Source: Eledone cirrhosa (Eukaryota). From it: a DNA stretch of 64,000 bases. The notes under the pieces were generated by a model. That model saw only the letters and a program-made list of their open reading frames with translations, was not told the DNA's origin and searched no databases. Numbering within the stretch: position 1 is the first letter of the stretch; every line of letters starts with the position of its first letter. A program made the translations under genes and the position numbers. Below, piece after piece: positions 142-63,222 of this stretch. The stretch spans positions 299,584,001-299,648,000 of the forward strand of contig OZ024740.1 of NCBI GenBank assembly GCA_964016885.1, in the 5' to 3' direction.

Positions 142-906
142 TTAATAATTATTATTATTGTTATATTTAATTTGCTTAAACCACTCAACAACCTCTCCAG
201 TTCCCTTCCACAAGCTCTGGTTAGGTAAACAATCCAAGTTCTTAATTTGCTGTATCACCCTGTCAAGAATGTTTTTGCTTAATTTGCCCAGGTCCGATTT
301 TGATGGTGCGATCAATCTAACTGGCAAGTCATTTTCAAAATTGCTCTTGTGATCTTTCATATTGATCTTCGGTTTCCTGGGCACGAAAGGTTGTGTTCTG
401 TTCTCAATTTCCAACTCGTGCATTATACAAGATGCTTCGACATTCATTTTCTCAAGCTCGGCCTTATCTGCTACCTTGTACTTTTTCCTCAATTCCTTCA
501 GTATGAGGCCATTATACATGTCTTTCTGCACTCCATAGAGGTTGTTGGTCTTGTCAGATTTCACCAAGATCTTCTCAGTTTTCTCTAAGCTCTCAATATT
601 ATCCTTAATGCCTTTCAGGTATTCCTGGCCTTTGAAGTTTCTTTTGAATTTGACCCCTTGTATGATAGAAATTATATCGTTTTCAAAGTCAGATAACAGT
701 TTGTTAGGGGGTGGATTTCTTTTAGATTTGAAAACTTTGTTTAAGTCCGAGACATTTTCATTTATATTAGATTTATCAAAGTGGAATGCTCGCCACCTGA
801 TTCTCCTTATAAAAGAGTCAGATTTATCTATTAATTGTTTTATAAAGTCTTTGTTTCTAGGTAGAGGTATGTCTTTTAAAGAGGAAGTAATCTTAAAGAA
901 TTCCAT
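142..906 (-). pseudogene. N-terminal half of a Penelope-like (Naiad-type) reverse transcriptase ORF; disrupted at RT motif A and continuing off the left edge of the window
   Basis: The translation has PLE N-terminal motifs FIRRIRWRAFHF, KSDKTNNLY (DKT variant of DKG), PKINMKDHK and PVRLIAP. It stops in an AAT/TAT slippage tract. The reading resumes in another frame as IINYYSSITPNLLNKALNYAFKH (about 138 down to 1) without the motif-A Asp. Confidence 0.85.
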
Positions 907-1084
907 TTTTTCAGTTATAATATAAAGCGCTCAACAGTATTGGAGCAAGATACATGGAAAGTTATATTTAAATTGTTGGGTTACAACTAGTAAATATTTA
1001 TAACTGATATAAAAGCACTCGACAAGTATTTGGAGTATATTTACGATATTAAATAAATGGAAACTATATTTATAAAACCATATT

Positions 1085-1150: not shown

Positions 1151-1290
1151 CAATATAGACAGTTTTATAGATAAATAGATTTGACATACCGTTTAACATC
1201 GACTTGTATTTGAAAAGTTGATTTGGCAGTGAAAAAAATTGTAAACAGAAAGAAAGAAAGAGAGAAAAAAGGAAAGAAAGAAAAGAAAAA

Positions 1291-2709
1291 AATCTACTAA
1301 ATAAGGCACTAAATTACGCATTCAAACATACAGACCTAACTAGCAATGAAATGCATATTATATTATCGGCTAGGAAAACATTGATAGAATTTAATGACCA
1401 ACTATGGACCAGAGCAGATAGAGATAGCAATTTTGACATTACTATGGGATCATCCGACTCAGCTCAGGTAACTGACCTTGTGGGCTTATTTTTAATCAAT
1501 TCGCTACATAGGAAAATACCTGGTACTACCGGAGGTTTATATAGAGATGACATGCTTTTACTTATTGATAATAATAACTCTGAACTAAATAGAAAATGTA
1601 AACAAATTACACAATTTTTTAATTACTTTAATCTTAAAATAGAAATTGAGAACAACCATAGAATAGTCAATTTCCTAGATATAACATTAAATCTCAACAC
1701 ATGTCTTCACTATCCTTTTCACAAGTTGAATGAAAACTTAAACTATGTCAGCTTTAACTCTAACCACCCCAGATCTGTCAAAAACACTATAGTAAACTCT
1801 GTACAAAAACGTATCTCTAGAATCTCATCCAATAGAAAGATTTTCGACGAAAAAGCCCAGTACTACAATGAAGCGTTAGCTAGACCAGGATATAGTGATA
1901 AGATTATGTACATAGATAATGATAGACAAACTAAACAAAATAACAACTATTTTAATTACGGCAACAACCTTAACAACTATAATAGAAAGCATTACAATAA
2001 TTCCAAAAGCCAAAAAAGAAATAGAACTAGGAACATAATTTGGTTTGCCCCCCCCCCCCCCCCTTTCTCACTAAACATTAAAACCCACATCGCTAAACTA
2101 TTTTTTAAAGCTCTTGATAATCGCTTCCCCAGAACACATAGGTATCACTCAATTTTCAATAGACATACTATAAAATTAACCTACTCATCCACCAAAAATT
2201 TAGCACAAAATATTAATAGAATAAATAATAGGAACTTAAAACCTAGTGATAATAGCATAAATAATATACAAGTTAACAAATGTAACTGTAGAGATAGATC
2301 TAAATGTCCGTTAAATAACAACTGCTTAGTTAAAAATATAATATACAATTGTAATGTTAAAACTGACTCTAATTCCTTTAACTACGTCGGTTCCACATCG
2401 ACGGAATTTAAACTTCGCTATAATAACCACAAGAATTATTTCACAGATCCAAGCAAAAAATCTTCAACAGCACTATCAGGCGTACTCTGGCAACTTAAGC
2501 TAGATAACGTTAGATATTCGACGGCTTGGAATATAGTCTCAAGAGGGATTCCTTTTAATTCATCCTCTGAGACATGTGACCTCTGCGCAGAGGAGATATT
2601 CTTTATACTAAAATCTAAAAATTCCCTTAATCTACGGACAAATTTATTCAGTTGCTGCAAACATAGATTAAACTCAACTTTTAAATATAAATTTAAATTT
2701 AAAATGTAG
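1291..2709 (+). CDS. 5'-truncated Penelope-like (Naiad-type) RT C-terminal half + Cys linker + GIY-YIG endonuclease
   Basis: Open frame from 1291 (first ATG at 1351) with ITMGS, GGLYRDD, VNFLDITL, SNHP, IIWFxPP, a CxCx5Cx5C linker (CNCRDRSKCPLNNNC), NIIY...YVGST..FKLRYNNH, CDLC..E and CKH. 1291-1399 is the near-exact reverse complement of window 1-109. Confidence 0.92.
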   Translation, partial: NLLNKALNYAFKHTDLTSNEMHIILSARKTLIEFNDQLWTRADRDSNFDITMGSSDSAQVTDLVGLFLINSLHRKIPGTTGGLYRDDMLLLIDNNNSELNRKCKQITQFFNYFNLKIEIENNHRIVNFLDITLNLNTCLHYPFHKLNENLNYVSFNSNHPRSVKNTIVNSVQKRISRISSNRKIFDEKAQYYNEALARPGYSDKIMYIDNDRQTKQNNNYFNYGNNLNNYNRKHYNNSKSQKRNRTRNIIWFAPPPPPFSLNIKTHIAKLFFKALDNRFPRTHRYHSIFNRHTIKLTYSSTKNLAQNINRINNRNLKPSDNSINNIQVNKCNCRDRSKCPLNNNCLVKNIIYNCNVKTDSNSFNYVGSTSTEFKLRYNNHKNYFTDPSKKSSTALSGVLWQLKLDNVRYSTAWNIVSRGIPFNSSSETCDLCAEEIFFILKSKNSLNLRTNLFSCCKHRLNSTFKYKFKFKM

Positions 2710-34618: not shown

Positions 34619-36178
34619 AGCTAGGTGGCACTCTTAAGGAATATCAAGCGGCGATAGGAGCAAAGATAAACCAGGAAAAATCGGTGGGATTGATCGGCAC
34701 TTGAAGAGGCAACTCAACGCGGTCTGACAGCGTCATCGGGCGCGGGACAGATTGACCGGTTAAATTGCTCTGGCTCTGGTTTGTTCCGGACCACCAGGTG
34801 GGGAAAACCTGGAGCGAGGTGACGAGTTGTGTGGCTTCTCTCACCCAGTAATAAGTCGGGAGGAAGCTGTCCCTGAAAGGTCGAGCGGAGGTGGTAAATG
34901 CGTATATTGTATCCGTCATCTACCGTGTTACCGTTGTGCTTTGCTCCAGCTCAACTCTGACAAAAATGGAGCGCCACCTCTTTCGCCTGTTGTTTGAGGG
35001 ACGCGTTCCAATGGTCAGACAATCCATCTGCAGTCAGTACTCGTTATGTGGAGGACTGGGCATGTCATGGCTTGTGATGCGCAAACATGCACTGAAGCTA
35101 CGACATCTTCAGTGCCTCCTTGTCGGTGAATAAGTGTGCTCACCGTTCGCCAAACACGTTTTTACCCAGCTCTTCTCCACGATGGATCTGCAGAACTTGG
35201 TCGCGAAAAGACCGAGAGGCAGCGCTGGAACTGCAATGTCTTCAGGCGCTCACTGCCCTTTACCAACTGGGCGCTAGGATCGGTGGGACATTTTCTTTGG
35301 AGTTTTATAGAGAACTAGTGTGTGTGTGTGGAGGGGGGGAGGGGGCGACATTCTCAGGGAGACCCTGGGCGTCGAAGACAGTCAGCTGTTCGTTTTCTTC
35401 TGGAGAACTTTCAGCCCGTGACCTATGGACAATTTCCAGAAATCTCTGGATAAGCTCTACAAACATGGAAGTGCTGTCAGTCGTGCCTGTCTGAGGTGTG
35501 CGCATTGCGATGAAAACGTCGTGCCTGCACTCGTTCAGAGCCTGTGAATTGCTGACCTGTAGGGCTGTCAGCGTTGCTGTAGCGAGTTGGACGGCTCCGG
35601 CTATCAATTGAGTCCTTTGTGAAGATATCCCCACCGTTTTCATTTAATCAAGAAGAGCAGGCAGTTTTTATCAAGGGCCCATGTCGACGAAACAGGTTGT
35701 GTGGTGGACACGACTGGAAAGTTTGAAGACGGACACTTCCTCTTCGGTGAATCCTTAAGTAACTTTTTCAAGTTTCACTCAAGGAGGTAAATTAGGGTTG
35801 AGAGTCAAAGGCTGTTTTCTAGGACGTTTGTTAAAAAGTGGATGAAAGTGGCGAGTCTAGTCCGAATATATACACTCTGAGTATGCGCTTGTAGACTGAG
35901 AGATGGAAGGACTAAGAGAGGGCGCTTGTCCTAGTTGTCAGAGTAGCCGTGGTTTTTGTGAGCTTTTCACCAGGACTGACCTTTGGAGGTTTCCCCCTTA
36001 TTCAGGAATATTTTGTTGTTTAAGTTTTATTATTGTGCGTTGTTCTACATGATATTAGTTTTATTTTAATGTTGGATTTTTCTACACGTCCCAAACCCAC
36101 ATCGTACCATCCTGTACCGTCATGTGACGTCTCTAATGTTTTTCTTAATGTGAGCCCCTGTGGCTAATTAAAGAAAAC
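34619..36178 (+). mobile_element. 5'-truncated, degenerate Tx1/L1-clade LINE (ORF2 C-terminus + 3' UTR) with 17-bp TSD
   Basis: Frames give YQAAIGAKINQEKSVGL, TWSEVT, RKLSLKGRAEVVNAYIVSVIY, LFRLLF and GGLGM. TSD ATTATTATTAATTACGT (34602-34618) and ATTATTATTAGTTACGT (36179-36195). Confidence 0.85.
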
Positions 36179-56866: not shown

Positions 56867-56919
56867 TACGCACATATATATATATATGTAAATACGTTCG
56901 AAGGTCATTATTAATTCCC

Positions 56920-57308
56920 GAGGCCGGTGAATTGGCAGTATCGGTAGGGGGTTGGACGCCATGCTTTCTAGCATAGTTACGTCCCTTTACAGTCTGAGTT
57001 CAAATCCCGCCGAGGTTGACTTTGCCTTTCATCCGTACCGGGTCGATAAAATAAAGTTCCAGTAATGCACTGGTAATTTGCTGGCCTTGTGCCTAAAGTA
57101 GAAACAATTATTAATTCCGTAGGGCGGTGGATTGGCAGTATCGGTAGAGAGTCGGACGCCATGGTTTGCAGCAAAGAGTTACGGCCCTTTTTGATCTGAG
57201 TTCAAATCCCGCCGAGGTTAACTTTGCCTTTCATCCTTATGGGGTCGATAAAATAAAGTACCAGTAATACCCTGGAATAATTGCTGGCCTTGTGCCAAAA
57301 TTAGAAAC
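56920..57308 (+). mobile_element. Tandem dimer of SINE family A
   Basis: Two full units. ATTATTAATTCC occurs before, between and after them (~56907, ~57107, ~57310). Confidence 0.88.
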
Positions 57309-57768
57309 AATTATTAATTCCGTGTCTGTGCAATAGTTAAGGATCTGATAAGAGTATCTATTATTCTATTACTGTATTACGTGGTCCAGCGGACAGTTTG
57401 AGGCCATGCTGGGGTACCGCCATTCACTATGTATAAAAACCGTGTGAATCACCAATTCCAAACAAATAAATCAACTAAAAGCATATATGTTTCTTTGTGC
57501 GTGCATGTGCTCATCCTAAACGGACGCTAGTTCGTTTAGTAATATTGTTGTGGTCGTGTTTTCGTTGGCAACCGTCTGTTTACGACAGTACAGCGCGGCT
57601 CTACTTTAGTTAACTGAGATAAAACTTATATGAGCATGAACAGTAGATCATTACGCATCTTTTGGCTTAAAAATCTTGAAATTTGGTCCAGGTGGAAAAA
57701 GTTTATAATCAAAGTTTGCTGATAAATCTTGTGTTCAAGTGAGTGAGTAGTAAGCATGACGCTAGGGG

Positions 57769-57891
57769 AGGTAATCCAGAAATGACGAATTTTTTTCGGC
57801 GGAACTCTTGTGATTGTGATTACGTTAGTCAAATGTAGTCAAATCGCCGAATCCCCTCCTCCTAATTGACTACGTCATTTCTGAACGGCCT
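57769..57891. mobile_element. Small degenerate MITE (possibly PIF/Harbinger-like ends)
   Basis: Left AGGTAATCCAGAAATGACG versus the reverse complement of the right end, AGGCCGTTCAGAAATGACG. Confidence 0.45.
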
Positions 57892-58040
57892 ACTTGTGAA
57901 ACATTACTTCACTTTTCACTGGTAAAATGCTTTTTAAATACTTCGTTAAAAATTTATGTTTATTATCAAAGCTATTTTTTGTACCAATCTATCAATAGTT
58001 TGCGAAAATATAGGTAAACATGTGAGTTAAATTTTTTTTA

Positions 58041-58410
58041 GTCGCATCGATCGCTTTGTCGCATCGACTGTGACACTGTCTGACTGTCTGTCTGACTGAC
58101 ACCTTTGTCGGACCGACACCTTTGTTCAAGCGGACAACTTTGTGTCACTGACACCTTTGTTCGTGCCGGCATCTCTGCGAAACACCGATGACAACAACCA
58201 GACCAAAATTTCACTTAATTCTTCATTCTTCTTCAAGACCGATCGCCGACCGATCGCATCGGTTGCTCTTCATATACCAGGTATTCAACAGATAGTTTGC
58301 ACTTCTAGTATTATTAACAGTCGTGCGATTTTTTGTACCGATAGGTGCGAATAGTGCGCTATATTTTTGTACCGATAGATGCGAATAGTGCGATAGGTGC
58401 GAATAGTGTA
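58041..58410. repeat. GC-richer short tandem/dispersed repeats upstream of the SGNH gene
   Basis: GTCGCATCGA x2, GACACCTTTGT x3 plus one variant, and GATAG(G/A)TGCGAATAGTG x3. Confidence 0.75.
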
Positions 58411-58455
58411 CAATATTTTCTGAGATTTGCATCCACTAATTTCGCTTAATTAAAG

Positions 58456-59251
58456 ATGATGTTTCGCGGCTTTTTGATCGGCTTATTCATTTTTTCCATG
58501 GCACGGAAATGGAGTATTTCCATTTCGAATCAAAACTTTTCACTAAAATCGGGCAATTGGACTGATCAAATTCACATTCATGCCAGTTTTTACAAATCCA
58601 TAATTAGAAATGTGGCGAAATCGAATGACCAGAAGGTATAAAAATATTAATTCAAATGTATTTACTTATCATACCAACAAAAATACTTAGATATTTTGTA
58701 TACCTGGGGCCCGTCAGGGCCAGGTAATGTTAATCGCCAACATTGTTATCTGTTGTCCTTTTGTGAAAGTATTGGTGGTTCATGTCGGCTCTAATGATAT
58801 GAATCCTCGTCGCACTGTTGGCACTACAAAGCTGTGCAAAGTAATACAATAATTTTTGCCCAAGTATTTTTTATTAATCATTTATTTGTAAATTAAGGAC
58901 AAAGTGCCCATTCGAGGCACAAAACCGGAAAAACAGGGGAAGAGTCTCTTTGCAAGGCTACAGAATATAGCGGAAAAGCACCACTGTACACCCATTTTCT
59001 ACAGTGGTCTCATTCCACGTCCACAAAGTGTAATTGAAAATAAAAATGACTTGGGCAAGAGAAATTCTCGTTTGGAAAAGTTTAATAACTGGATGAAAGA
59101 AATGATTCAAAAATTGAACTTGCCCAATCTTCACAACATTGAAAATTGGTCAAAATTTCACAAATCTGACTTCAAACCAGATATGATTCATTTGAACAAT
59201 GTTAGAAATCTTAAATTGACACAAATTTTTGCCAATGTTTTTGCCACCTGA
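58456..59251 (+). CDS. Three-exon SGNH/GDSL hydrolase (esterase) gene, ~227 aa; exons 58456-58635, 58691-58840, 58898-59251
   Basis: Two GT-AG introns (55 and 57 bp), both phase 0, give one open frame of 684 nt. SGNH blocks occur in order: SIIRNV (block I, GD not conserved), IFCIPGA (II), VLVVHVGSND (III), YSGLIPR..FNNWM, and PDMIHLN (V, DxxH). AATAAA at 59289. Confidence 0.8.
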
Positions 59252-59431
59252 TCCTTGTTCTATGGCTGACTGACTAATTTTGTGACTTAATAAAATGTCA
59301 TCATACTAGTAATGCACAATGGTCATTTTTAAATTTAAATTTTATTAAATAGTTGTTGCTTGCATTGCATTAAAATAGTAACAAGAATGTACACATACTT
59401 TTTAAAAATACATCATTATCAGTCAAATCAG

Positions 59432-59891
59432 TCAAATGTCACTAAAAGCCAGGTGGTCGATAACAACTTCTATAAGATTAGTTACATGCTCACACATAGG
59501 ATCACCTCTCATCAATGGCATTGGGTGTCTAAGATAATCGTGGAGATAACTGATGAAGTCACAAATGAAGTGTTGGTCTTCCAGTGTGAACAACTCCCTA
59601 TATCCATTGATATATGTGATGGCTTCCGATTTATAGGTGCATTTTATGAGGAATTCCATGCATCCGATTTTCAGTGATTCAATGGGCATTTTATTAGAGA
59701 TGATAAGGTATTTGATCACGTTTTGCTTTGTAAGTAAATTGGAGAGAATCACTGCAGTCAAAGTCATTTCTTGCATGGGTTTTTGTCCATTCTAAAAAGT
59801 TAAAATGATAAAGTATTACTACTATATAACTTACATCTATTGTTGTAACACCATTGAAATGCACAAGTTTCACCAATTCACTATTATGCAC
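59432..59891 (-). CDS. Two-exon gene encoding a stand-alone BACK/SPOP-C-terminal-like helical domain; exons ~59891-59835 and 59791-59432; 5' start uncertain
   Basis: A 43-bp GTAAGT...TTTTTAG phase-0 intron (59834-59792) joins the two track ORFs in frame. LSNLLTKQNVIKYLIISNKMPIESLKIGCMEFLI...INGYREL resembles the post-BTB BACK helices. AATAAA on the minus strand at 59346-59341. Confidence 0.6.
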
Positions 59892-60063
59892 TAATCATCT
59901 CAAATGCATTCATGATTTACTAGCTTTGTCATTAAGCCAGTTGCCTCAACTAGATTGCAATTATACTCAAAACAACTTTAAAATGTCAATCACTTGTCAG
60001 TAATTCACTATGATCATTTAATTATTAGATAGTTGTTGCTTGCATTGTCTTAAAAAATAGTAG

Positions 60064-61127
60064 ACCAGATAGAAAAATGCGTACAGCAAAAAAAAGTAAT
60101 ATTGTTGGAATATAAACCTTTAAAAATACAGGACAAGAAACTAAAATAAAACTTTAAAAGAATAGGACAAGAAACTAAGATAAAACTTTAAAGTATTGGA
60201 CAAGAAATAAAAAAATTTACAATAATATTAGTGGCAACATTTTTTTATTCGTTTTCTGTGCTATGCCCCAGTATCTTCTTGATTAGTGCATAATAATTGT
60301 CATGCTCTCATTGTGCGTTGCCCCTGAGCGGTTGGTTCTGGTTGGGGTTGGTTGGCTGAGCAGTTCTGCTCCGTCAGAATGACCATTGCAAGAAGAATTG
60401 GCCGATGCAGCTGCAGGTCTCCTCCAACAATGCACTTCTGGTCCCGCAACACCAGACGAAGATGGAGAAGACGACCGGGACAAGATGTCGACTCTGACCA
60501 CCGACTACGGCACCTCCCTCAACCACCGGTCCTCCCTCCCTCCCTCTGTCCCGTCATCCCTCCAGTCCTCCTGCTCCCCCTTCCTGTACCAGAAAGCTGT
60601 GGCACGCATTCATCTGGACTGCCGGACTTGAACTCAAGGACAAGATGCAAGGAGAAGATGGACGGGTTGGTCAAGATCAAGGATGAGCGGGACGACAAGA
60701 CCGTCCGCTGCTGCTCAAGATCTGTTCTCATGGGCCCATGGGTCCATTCACATTATGCATGACACATGAGGCGTGTCGCCGAATGATGAAATAGGGGTAT
60801 GGTTATGGCCCAATTGGTGTTCAAACCAGGTTCAAATGATCCCCCGGTCTGACGACGACCTCTGAATGTGGAACCCAGAGCCTATGAATGTGGAACTGGA
60901 TTTTTTACCAATAAAACTTTTGCCACTAATATTATTGTAAACTTTTTTATTTCTTGTCCAATTCTTTAAAGTTTTATCTTAGTTTCTTGTCCTATTCTTT
61001 TAAAGTTTTATCTTAGTTTCTTGTCCTATTCTTTTAAAGTTTTATTTTAGTTTCTTGTCCTGTATTTTTAAAGGTTTATATTCCAACAATATTACTTTAT
61101 TTTGCTGTACGCATTTTTCTATCTGGT
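60064..61127. mobile_element. Foldback unit: long inverted repeats (60064-~60237 and ~60920-61127) enclosing a GC-rich degenerate coding segment
   Basis: The arms are near-identical reverse complements with internal ~33-bp tandem units (GGACAAGAAACTAAGATAAAACTTTAAAAGAATA; one more unit on the right). No TSD is evident. Confidence 0.75.
60352..60900 (+). pseudogene. GC-rich frameshifted ORF remnant of unknown function
   Basis: Overlapping open stretches in all three frames (e.g. ELADAAAGLLQQ..DEDGEDD, RKLWHAFIWTAGLELKDKM, EKMDGLVKIKDERDDK, PLLLKICSHGPMGPFTLCMTHEACRRMMK). AATAAA at ~60910. Confidence 0.35.
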
Positions 61128-62239
61128 ATATTTATGTATAAATACATACGCTCACAAACGTGCACACGCATGTACACGTTGGCTTACACACATGTGCATA
61201 TAGTTATGTATGATTACATACACACACAAGCGTGCACTCTCACTCGCACAAACACATGCAATCGTTCGCACACACATATATGTATATATATATATGATTG
61301 TTGGTGTATGTAAATGTAGAAATATTTACATATACTTATGTATGATTACATAAACTCAAAAACATGCACGCACACACACGCATTCCCACTTTGGCGAACA
61401 CACATATATATATATATATATACATATATGGTTGTAGATCTATGTGAATGTATAAATATGTTCATATACACTCACAAGCGTACACACACACACACACACT
61501 CATGAACTCGTTGTCTCACACATATATGTAAACACATATATGTTTGTAGATGTATGTAGATGTAGAAATATGTATATATGTTATAATACGTAGTATTTAC
61601 ATCCATACATGTATGTACATATCACTGTTTATAGAGGTACCGAGAAACGCTTGCTATTTATGGCACTAAGCCGATTGTCCTTGTATTTGTTGTTACATTT
61701 AGCGTAGAAATATTTCTATACTGGTAAAAAATATTAATTTATTTTCATTGTATGAGTTAGAGGGAAGACAAATGATGAATTCATTCAATGCGTATTCAGA
61801 GAAAAAGAAACGTTGTTTGATGAGTGGGGATTCTGGTAACATTTCTTACATAATGTTTTCAAAATAAACGGAAATTGAAGTCTGAAAGACGACTAAATTT
61901 ATCTATCCATGTTCATAACGTGGGAAATTATTTATGTACCACTATCTATCTATCTATTTGTCAATCTGGATATTTATCAAGCTCTCTCTTTCTTTCTCTC
62001 TCACTACCCCTCTCTCTTTCCCTATATATATATACATCTATGAAATGTATGCATGTATGTATGTGTGTGTTTGTATTTGTGTGTATGTGCGTTTTTGTTT
62101 GTGCGTGTATGCAAACATATATAAGCATTTATAACTCTGTATATTTATGTAATCTAAATCTAAATTTAAAAACGAAAGAAGACTAAATTTCTCTGTCCGT
62201 GTTCCCGAGAATATTTATGAATTCATATCAATCTATTTC

Positions 62240-63019: not shown

Positions 63020-63222
63020 TAACGAGGGAAATGTTGTAAGGAACCAGATGGACCATAACGCACCAAAGTACTCAATACTTAGATACTTAGGGTAGTAGAG
63101 TGGGTAATAGGAACGAGTAAGACCCTGACGGCTGAGCTCAAGCCGTTTCGACGGCTAATTGTGGACTAAATTAGCAGTCGAAACGGCTTGAGCTCAGCCG
63201 TCGGGGTCCTACTCGTTCCTAT
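63020..63222 (-). mobile_element. Foldback pLTR fragment, same family as 20060-20342
   Basis: Inverted arms at ~63108-63160 and ~63170-63222 contain GAA-ACGGCT(tgagctc)AGCCGT-C, i.e. a 6-bp stem III with GUC. Flanked by (TA)n. Confidence 0.75.

What the first reader, a model, noticed from the sequence alone, without database searches (positions are those of the whole stretch)
57970..61127. Compact foreign-looking gene island: micro-intron SGNH esterase + convergent BACK-only gene + foldback cassette
Seen: within ~3 kb of an otherwise repeat-filled window lie a repeat-rich upstream region, a spliced SGNH hydrolase gene (+) and a convergent spliced BACK-like gene (-). Their poly(A) signals are ~50 bp apart. 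A GC-rich ORF remnant in long inverted repeats follows, and host-type (CA)/(TA) DNA resumes right at 61128. All three introns are 43-57 bp and phase 0. Known: SGNH esterases occur in ORF1 of some CR1/L2/RTE-group LINEs, where they are intronless; BACK domains normally follow BTB in cullin-3 adaptors. Inference: this is a fragment of a large cargo-carrying DNA element or endogenous virus, or a horizontally acquired segment. I do not recognise the gene combination. No transposase or polymerase is in the window.
Basis: partly seen in the sequence, partly recalled or inferred. Interest (0 to 1): 0.85.

Follow-up and report, generated by a model that had tools for sequence, protein, structure and literature searches.

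The report
Gene-carrying rolling-circle transposon copy
This 3.6-kb stretch is one copy of a repeated mobile element, likely a non-autonomous Helitron-type (rolling-circle) transposon with an unusual end layout, that carries a likely truncated esterase gene with tiny predicted introns and a second small gene of unproven family.

Summary
The island is real, but larger than reported and one unit rather than three. It runs 57514-61126/7. Three contigs from other runs stop matching the window at exactly 57513; the two whose flanks can be compared are unrelated. Three joints show internally deleted versions, so it is a multi-copy family, seen in three organism labels at about 98-99% identity. Its ends read A|TC...CTGG|T with no target duplication, a 5' stem-loop, and a perfect 13-bp subterminal inverted repeat (0 of 2000 shuffles). 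That is the layout of HLE2-type Helitrons of the FoHeli3-5/proto-Helentron kind. No transposase is present, so the family call rests on the ends. The 'foldback cassette' is an inverted inner copy of the 3' end, not a separate insertion. The SGNH esterase and its two 55/57-bp introns are supported by motif and frame, not by RNA. Its 5' end is probably replaced by other repeat DNA. The BACK label is unconfirmed, and the phase-0 third intron is not shared by other copies. Helitrons carrying SGNH genes are known from fish (texim). Verdict: a new variant of a known kind, not a virus.

The parts
57514..61126 (+). Whole element, 3613 bp (3614 if the T at 61127 belongs to it): non-autonomous Helitron-like copy, A|TC ... 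CTGG|T, no target-site duplication
   Evidence: contigs start matching at 57513; depth falls after the 61002-61137 bin; junctions, TSD test, purine-pyrimidine tract on both sides
57516..57539 (+). 5' stem-loop, 10-bp stem
   Evidence: -6.7 kcal/mol on +, 2 of 500 shuffles as stable; -5.0 on minus, 12 of 500
57538..57550 (+). Left 13-bp subterminal inverted repeat
   Evidence: exact reverse complement at 61084-61096; 0 of 2000 shuffles reach 13; only 3 occurrences in the 64-kb window
57514..57787 (+). Constant left module kept by all three deletion forms
   Evidence: table 5: joints 57785>59653, 57787>59921, 57788>59069
57895..58450 (.). Non-coding repeat-rich segment with a short GTCT/CTGA microsatellite (58075-58100) and 17-, 18- and 34-bp repeats
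   Evidence: present in X1, X4 and X5 contigs
58490..58600 (.). Segment shared with another repeat; likely replaced the 5' end of the esterase gene
   Evidence: X4 record 11 matches 58490-58600 with 17 other letters and 3 gaps, then runs on unlike the window
58598..58635 (+). Esterase exon remnant with the block I serine (SIIRNV)
58636..58690 (+). Predicted intron 1, 55 bp, GT-AG, phase 0
   Evidence: 18% GC, stops, restores frame
58691..58840 (+). Esterase exon with blocks II and III (PGA, VVHVGSND)
58841..58897 (+). Predicted intron 2, 57 bp, GT-AG, phase 0, two in-frame stops
58898..59251 (+). Last esterase exon with the block V D-x-x-H motif and stop
59289..59346 (.). Convergent AATAAA signals (+ 59289-59294, - 59341-59346)
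59432..59791 (-). Open frame of 119 codons, predicted all-helical; BTB/BACK-like only by an Atlas lead and a recalled motif
   Evidence: no hit
59792..59834 (-). 43-bp GT-AG segment, more likely a 5'-UTR intron than a phase-0 coding intron
   Evidence: (indel at 59770)
60064..60244 (-). Inner inverted copy of the element's right end, including the 13-mer (60095-60107) and a 34-bp array
   Evidence: joined to its left flank in X4, X5 and X7 contigs
60245..60912 (.). GC-rich core (52%), no family found
   Evidence: X4 record 16 spans 60239-60932
60913..61127 (+). Right end: 34-bp tandem array (60950-61079, 3.9 copies), right 13-bp repeat (61084-61096), weak palindrome, CTGG|T

Best explanation
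The stretch 57514-61126 is one slightly diverged copy of a multi-copy mobile element, likely a non-autonomous HLE2-type Helitron that would be copied by a rolling-circle transposase encoded elsewhere, and it carries a likely 5'-truncated SGNH esterase gene with predicted micro-introns plus a small helical-protein frame. Shown: multiple copies, a shared left end at 57513/4, deletion forms, the 13-bp asymmetric inverted repeat, the 5' stem-loop, A|TC...CTGG|T ends and no target duplication. Inferred from Helitron biology: a RepHel protein binds the subterminal repeats, nicks at the 5' TC, peels off the + strand, stops at CTGG and joins the copy into an A|T site. Inferred: the cargo descends from a longer relative by internal deletion and by recombination with another repeat at about 58600. 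The inner arm likely arose by self-insertion in the opposite orientation or by a template switch. This copy is likely decaying.
For:: two X4 contigs with unrelated flanks (agreement 0.63) and one X5 contig (23 unmatched letters) all begin to match at 57513. Three of 5 listed joints delete cargo from 57785-57788. X1 contig depth steps from about 560-650 (esterase) to about 1250-1310 (second gene) to about 4300 (core), against 190 and 60 in the two right-flank bins; X4 and X7 give 0 there (depth is not a copy number); 13-bp repeat, 0 of 2000 shuffles; stem-loop, 2 of 500; right repeat ends 31 bp from the end; no TSD of 2-14 bp; alternating purine-pyrimidine DNA 62% just left, 72% just right, 2% inside. 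The layout matches FoHeli3-5 (5' hairpin, 13-16-bp repeat, 3' repeat 20-40 bp from the end, no 3' hairpin) and proto-Helentron (A|T, 3' CTAG, 5' stem-loop). A GTCT microsatellite, then a tandem array, then the subterminal repeat within 48 bp of the end matches oyster HINEs. Multiple and inverted termini by self-insertion are proposed for FoHeli. SGNH genes ride fish Helitrons. 10 of 12 listed coding differences between window and contigs are non-synonymous.
Against: No RepHel is present and no genome was held, so the defining protein is untested. The right boundary rests on the arm pair, the depth drop and the flank character; no listed contig spans 61127/61128 (tables were cut). Terminal motifs are short and were picked after the ends were set. 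Stem-loops as stable occur inside the element (at least 15 of 715 windows). The base before the inner arm's end is G, and the shared deletion point at 57785-57788 is unexplained. The ends also fit a minus-strand, T|T Helentron reading, so the nicked strand is not settled.
Confidence: 0.72

Rival explanations
1. It is a canonical Helitron (HLE1) derivative that starts at TC, ends at CTRR and inserts in A|T; the 13-bp repeat is a by-product.
For: Exact A|TC and CTGG|T ends; X5 loose ends at 60070/60074 show related ends with CTAG; the HLE1 definition is.
Against: The 3' hairpin is only a 3-bp stem (53 of 500 shuffles as stable). HLE1 lacks terminal inverted repeats, yet a significant 13-bp pair is present.
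Confidence: 0.12
2. It is a composite cut-and-paste unit: a foldback/MITE element (60064-61127) that moves by its long inverted arms and sometimes carries the DNA to its left.
For: Arms 97% alike with internal 34-bp arrays; the highest depth lies on the arms.
Against: No target duplication around the whole element. The DNA left of the inner arm is joined to it in X4, X5 and X7 contigs at a depth equal to or above the core. The left end has only the 13-mer and a hairpin, not an arm.
Confidence: 0.08
3. It is a piece of an endogenous DNA virus, a Polinton or a horizontally acquired genome segment with compact genes.
For: Short AT-rich introns and tightly packed convergent genes; no close protein relatives found.
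Against: No relatives in viral or metagenome contigs. Both ends are present in 3.6 kb, with a Helitron-type layout. The esterase's nearest leads are a LINE ORF1 esterase and animal clusters.
Confidence: 0.05
4. It is a Penelope-like or other retroelement remnant with an inverted terminal repeat and a GDSL esterase, as in Terminons.
For: Terminons carry GDSL esterases; the inverted copy of one end recalls inverted pseudo-LTRs (recalled).
Against: No hammerhead match (Rfam; core-motif scan printed none); a fixed left end shared by copies rather than random truncation.
Confidence: 0.02
5. It is an assembly chimera with contaminant DNA.
For: No listed contig bridges this locus's host junctions.
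Against: The family is present in runs of three organism labels and three studies, with different flanks; the insertion splits one host-type tract.
Confidence: 0.01

Closest known systems
FoHeli3-5 ('HLE2-reverse', Fusarium) and proto-Helentron (Phytophthora); PMC5148889, PMC4067079, PMC11417382
   Same: 5' stem-loop ahead of the left short inverted repeat; 13-bp asymmetric repeat with the right copy about 30 bp inside the end; no good 3' hairpin; A|T site and CTRR end as in proto-Helentron; no TSD; extra internal termini.
   Different: Animal host; no transposase in this copy; a 181-bp inverted inner copy of the right end with a 34-bp array; spliced cargo genes.
HINE/DINE-1 non-autonomous Helentrons (oyster Cg_HINE, mite HINE); PMC7492417, PMC4067079
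   Same: Subterminal repeats, a GTCY-type microsatellite, a tandem array followed within about 50 bp by the 3' repeat, no TSD.
   Different: The strong stem-loop is at the opposite end on the + reading; the left repeat is 24 nt from the end rather than 2-4; the target is A|T unless the element is read on the minus strand; coding cargo.
texim SGNH hydrolase genes on fish Helitrons; PMC4021074
   Same: Intron-containing SGNH gene related to CR1/L2 esterases, mobilised by a Helitron.
   Different: teximYa and teximYb have 15 exons and a nearby Helitron coding region; here a compact, likely truncated gene with 55-57-bp introns in a non-autonomous copy. Kinship to texim was not tested.
LINE ORF1 esterase (PDB 4c1b; known from recall as zebrafish ZfL2-1)
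   Same: Blocks II, III and V align.
   Different: Weak score (E 0.11), interrupted by introns, no RT, block I reads YKS.

Membership tests
HLE2 (Helentron/Helitron2) | Short (11-17 nt) asymmetric subterminal inverted repeat | tested here: met
   13 bp exact, 0 of 2000 shuffles; definition
HLE2 (Helentron/Helitron2) | Terminal stem-loop next to a subterminal repeat | tested here: met
   57516-57539, 2 of 500 shuffles on +
HLE2 (Helentron/Helitron2) | No target-site duplication | tested here: met
   No match for k = 2-14; one copy only
HLE2 (Helentron/Helitron2) | Insertion in T|T | tested here: inconclusive
   T|T on the minus strand if base 61127 belongs to the element, otherwise A|T; proto-Helentron uses A|T
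HLE2 (Helentron/Helitron2) | Partner RepHel of the HLE2 clade | not testable with these tools
   No transposase in the element; no host genome held
Transposable element family | Several copies with a shared sharp boundary and unrelated flanks | tested here: met
   Left end: 3 contigs at 57513. Right end only by depth drop and arm pair
HLE1 (canonical Helitron) | 5' TC, 3' CTRR, A|T site | tested here: met
HLE1 (canonical Helitron) | Hairpin 10-12 nt before CTRR and no terminal inverted repeats | tested here: not met
   3-bp stem, 53 of 500 shuffles; 13-bp repeat present
SGNH/GDSL hydrolase | Block II Gly, block III Asn, block V Asp/His | tested here: met
   Alignment to 4c1b; Pfam PF13472 E 0.0066, 17.4 bits against a cut-off of 32.9; Atlas 0.91-0.96
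SGNH/GDSL hydrolase | Block I G-D-S nucleophile motif | tested here: inconclusive
   Ser present but preceded by Y-K at a junction with other repeat DNA
SGNH/GDSL hydrolase | SGNH fold | tested here: inconclusive
   Single-sequence model pLDDT 37.5; best Z 3.1
BACK domain (BTB-associated) | Profile or fold match to BACK/BTB | tested here: inconclusive
   No Pfam or PDB hit; model pLDDT 41.5, no informative fold match; Atlas rows at 0.86-0.89, low recognition score, top row an unnamed cluster
Foldback/MITE (cut-and-paste) for 60064-61127 | Own target duplication and independent insertion | tested here: not met
   Flanks beside the two arm ends differ (alignment); the left flank is joined to the arm in contigs of X4, X5 and X7
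Penelope-like/Terminon | Hammerhead ribozyme in the terminal repeat | tested here: not met
   None among 8 Rfam rows; core-motif scan empty
Endogenous virus/Polinton | PolB, capsid, integrase or ATPase genes | tested here: inconclusive
   None seen within the element; no viral relatives; longer copies could not be examined

The most novel reading that the evidence does not exclude
The family descends from a large autonomous animal Helitron lineage with reverse-type (proto-Helentron-like) ends, a layout my searches found described only in Fusarium and Phytophthora. Its esterase and BTB/BACK-like genes with 43-57-bp introns are its own long-resident accessory genes, not recent host captures. The LINE-type esterase would then have moved into a DNA element, gained micro-introns and been kept independently of fish texim, pointing to a shared use in transposon spread; a BACK-only protein could act as a cullin-3 decoy. 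Near-identity across three organism labels could reflect recent spread between species.
Probability: 0.3. Interest if true: 0.72.

Novelty: new variant of a known kind. Interest (0 to 1): 0.48.

Why it matters
It turns an unexplained gene island into a defined, young transposon family with findable ends, so the autonomous parent can be looked for directly. If confirmed, it extends the reverse-type HLE2 end layout to an animal and gives a second case of an SGNH esterase on a Helitron. That bears on the open question of why LINEs, Terminons and Helitrons repeatedly carry this enzyme. It also warns that such copies can be annotated as host genes or as MITEs.

Tried and rejected
Whole-genome search: none held. 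Homolog searches, 3 of 3 empty: second frame at near length (3 candidates) and longer (56 candidates); esterase read-through (21 candidates). HMMER over 1.84 billion representatives gave 1 hit, a repetitive pyrin/FIIND protein (E 7e-7), rejected as a repeat-boosted chance match. Viral contigs: protein and DNA scans empty. Metagenomes: both scans empty. Both AlphaFold models were single-sequence with pLDDT about 40, and three fold searches were uninformative. Rfam: 8 rows, all below gathering score. No RNA holder listed, so splicing is untested; none of the 5 listed joints matches an intron, in runs of unknown or presumed DNA kind. X7 covers only 9 of 30 bins, which shows no absence. An ATGCACTAATCA motif idea was dropped: the apparent third copy was a consensus of two unrelated flanks. 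A 16-nt left/right match (57612-57627) was set aside as likely chance on a rough hand estimate. The minus-strand Helentron reading was my second idea; it was ranked lower because the hairpin is more stable on + and the microsatellite/array order fits +. Four look-ups of earlier findings returned nothing.
Full report
Observation. The window is microsatellite- and repeat-rich animal DNA; from recalled repeat types it looks octopus-like, which no call tested. The reported features are mostly present. Three GT-AG segments of 55, 57 and 43 bp have 18-19% GC against 36-44% in the flanking exons, and the first two hold in-frame stops. Removing them in a script joins SIIRNV, IFCIPGAR, VVHVGSND and KPDMIH in one frame. 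Read through intron 2, the protein's best PDB row of 3 is the ORF1 esterase 4c1b (E 0.11), with blocks II, III and V aligned. Pfam gives Lipase_GDSL_2 at E 0.0066, below cut-off. The Atlas places the last exon with unnamed animal clusters (0.92-0.96) and GDSL clusters. The convergent poly(A) signals are 46 bp apart, and the inverted arms match at 176 of 181 positions.

Corrections to the genes. Block I reads YKS. An X4 contig matches 58490-58600 (17 other letters, 3 gaps) and then runs on unlike the window right after the serine codon, so the upstream 'exon 1' likely derives from another repeat. Its 47 open codons have about a 5% chance at that composition, so a recruited exon is not excluded. 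The junction is a family trait: contigs of X1, X4 and X5 cross it. For the minus-strand frame, X1 and X4 contigs differ from the window by a 1-base indel at 59770. In their phase the upstream frame stops just before the donor, and in the window's phase the upstream 20 codons have no start. The 43-bp segment is therefore more likely a 5'-UTR intron. The BACK label has only an Atlas lead (rows at 0.86-0.89, low recognition) and a recalled resemblance to the helices after BTB; Pfam, PDB, two homolog searches and fold searches gave nothing. No RNA holder was listed, so splicing is predicted, not shown.

It is a multi-copy element. Eleven runs from 7 studies and 8 organism labels hold words of it; I laid 4. 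Pieces are about 98-99% identical to the window in organisms A and B, and the three longest in-family pieces in D are too (382 bp with 2 differences). Three of 5 listed joints delete cargo from one point: 57785>59653 (X4), 57787>59921 (X1, X5), 57788>59069 (X1). X1 contig depth steps accordingly: about 560-650 over the esterase, 1250-1310 over the second frame, 2324 on the left module, about 4300 on the core and 5243 just left of the inner arm, against 190 and 60 in the right-flank bins; X4 and X7 have 0 there. The tool states that depth is no copy number, so I give none. The inner arm is joined to its left flank in X4, X5 and X7, so the 'foldback cassette' is not a separate insertion. Of 12 listed coding differences between window and contigs, 10 are non-synonymous (47 rows of that table were not shown), as expected for decay or assembly error in this copy.

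The ends. They read A|TC...CTGG|T, with no duplication of 2-14 bp. Alternating purine-pyrimidine DNA covers 62% of the 40 bp to the left and 72% of the 80 bp to the right, but 2% inside, as if one host tract had been split. A 13-mer at 57538-57550 has its exact reverse complement at 61084-61096; 0 of 2000 shuffles reach that length, and its only other occurrence in 64 kb is in the inner arm. A 10-bp stem-loop at 57516-57539 is more stable on + (-6.7 kcal/mol, 2 of 500 shuffles) than on minus (12 of 500); the 3' palindrome is weak (53 of 500). Against over-reading: at least 15 of 715 internal windows fold as stably, and no listed contig spans the right junction.

Mechanism. HLE1 elements have TC/CTRR ends, a 3' hairpin and A|T sites; HLE2 elements have short inverted repeats and usually T|T sites (PMC11417382, passages; PMC4778049, passages). 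FoHeli3-5 have a 5' hairpin, a 13-16-bp repeat whose 3' copy lies 20-40 bp inside the end, and no 3' hairpin (PMC5148889, passages and section 6). Proto-Helentron ends in CTAG and inserts in A|T (PMC4067079, passages and section 11); both are HLE2 with a 5' stem-loop (PMC11417382 section 24). This copy fits that layout. Its order of GTCT microsatellite, tandem array and subterminal repeat within 48 bp of the end fits oyster HINEs (PMC7492417, passages). I infer a non-autonomous element copied in trans by RepHel from the + strand; a minus-strand, T|T reading remains possible because base 61127 is ambiguous. The inner inverted end is best explained by the self-insertion model proposed for FoHeli or by a template switch; neither is shown. 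The common deletion point lies at the inner edge of an 11-bp inverted pair (57777/57873) and is unexplained, as is a 74% repeat of the inter-gene 3' region at 59979-60062.

Comparison and novelty. Intron-bearing SGNH genes related to CR1 esterases are carried by fish Helitrons (texim; PMC4021074, parts 1-3 of 5 read), and Terminons carry GDSL esterases (PMC6431247, passages). The HELIANO section on captured domains names neither SGNH nor BTB/BACK among those it lists (section 22); its Table S11 I did not read, and it may bear on this. An Octopus vulgaris annotation lists 8 recently active Helitron families with 178 insertions over 765,802 bp (PMC13282606, passages and one supplement search) and gives no sequences in what I saw, so this family may already sit in a repeat library. 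Eight literature searches (listings only unless named above) showed no Helitron with this gene pair and no reverse-type ends in an animal; subscription journals and Repbase were not covered.

Verdict. A real, young, non-autonomous Helitron-like family (0.84 for any Helitron, 0.72 for the HLE2 type) with unusual ends and compact cargo. Membership of HLE2 proper stays open until the transposase is found. New variant of a known kind; interest 0.48.

Noticed in passing
window 142-930 (-) and 1222-2709 (+): Two long frames (262 and 495 aa) in opposite orientation that look, from recalled motifs, like the two halves of a Penelope-like RT/GIY-YIG ORF; no Pfam hit.
   Followed up: partly
window 56907-57323: Tandem of 2.1 copies of a 202-bp SINE-like unit just left of the element; 57367-57424 is a further short high-copy repeat piece with many unrelated flanks.
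   Followed up: no
window 57757-57895: Imperfect inverted pair (11-bp cores at 57777 and 57873) inside the element; all three cargo-deleting joints start at 57785-57788.
   Followed up: partly
window 59291-59380 and 59979-60062: 74% direct repeat over 95 nt: the region after the minus-strand frame is repeated ahead of it, as if from an earlier tandem gene or duplication.
   Followed up: partly
window 60070-60107 and 61051-61084 (X5 loose ends): Organism B holds related end sequences that finish in CTAG variants, so sister families share this terminus.
   Followed up: no
window about 63108-63222: Near-perfect hairpin with a stem of about 45 bp and a 24-nt loop, read by eye.
   Followed up: no
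window 35001-36000: Most GC-rich bin of the window (49%) with overlapping frames of 132 and 112 aa.
   Followed up: no
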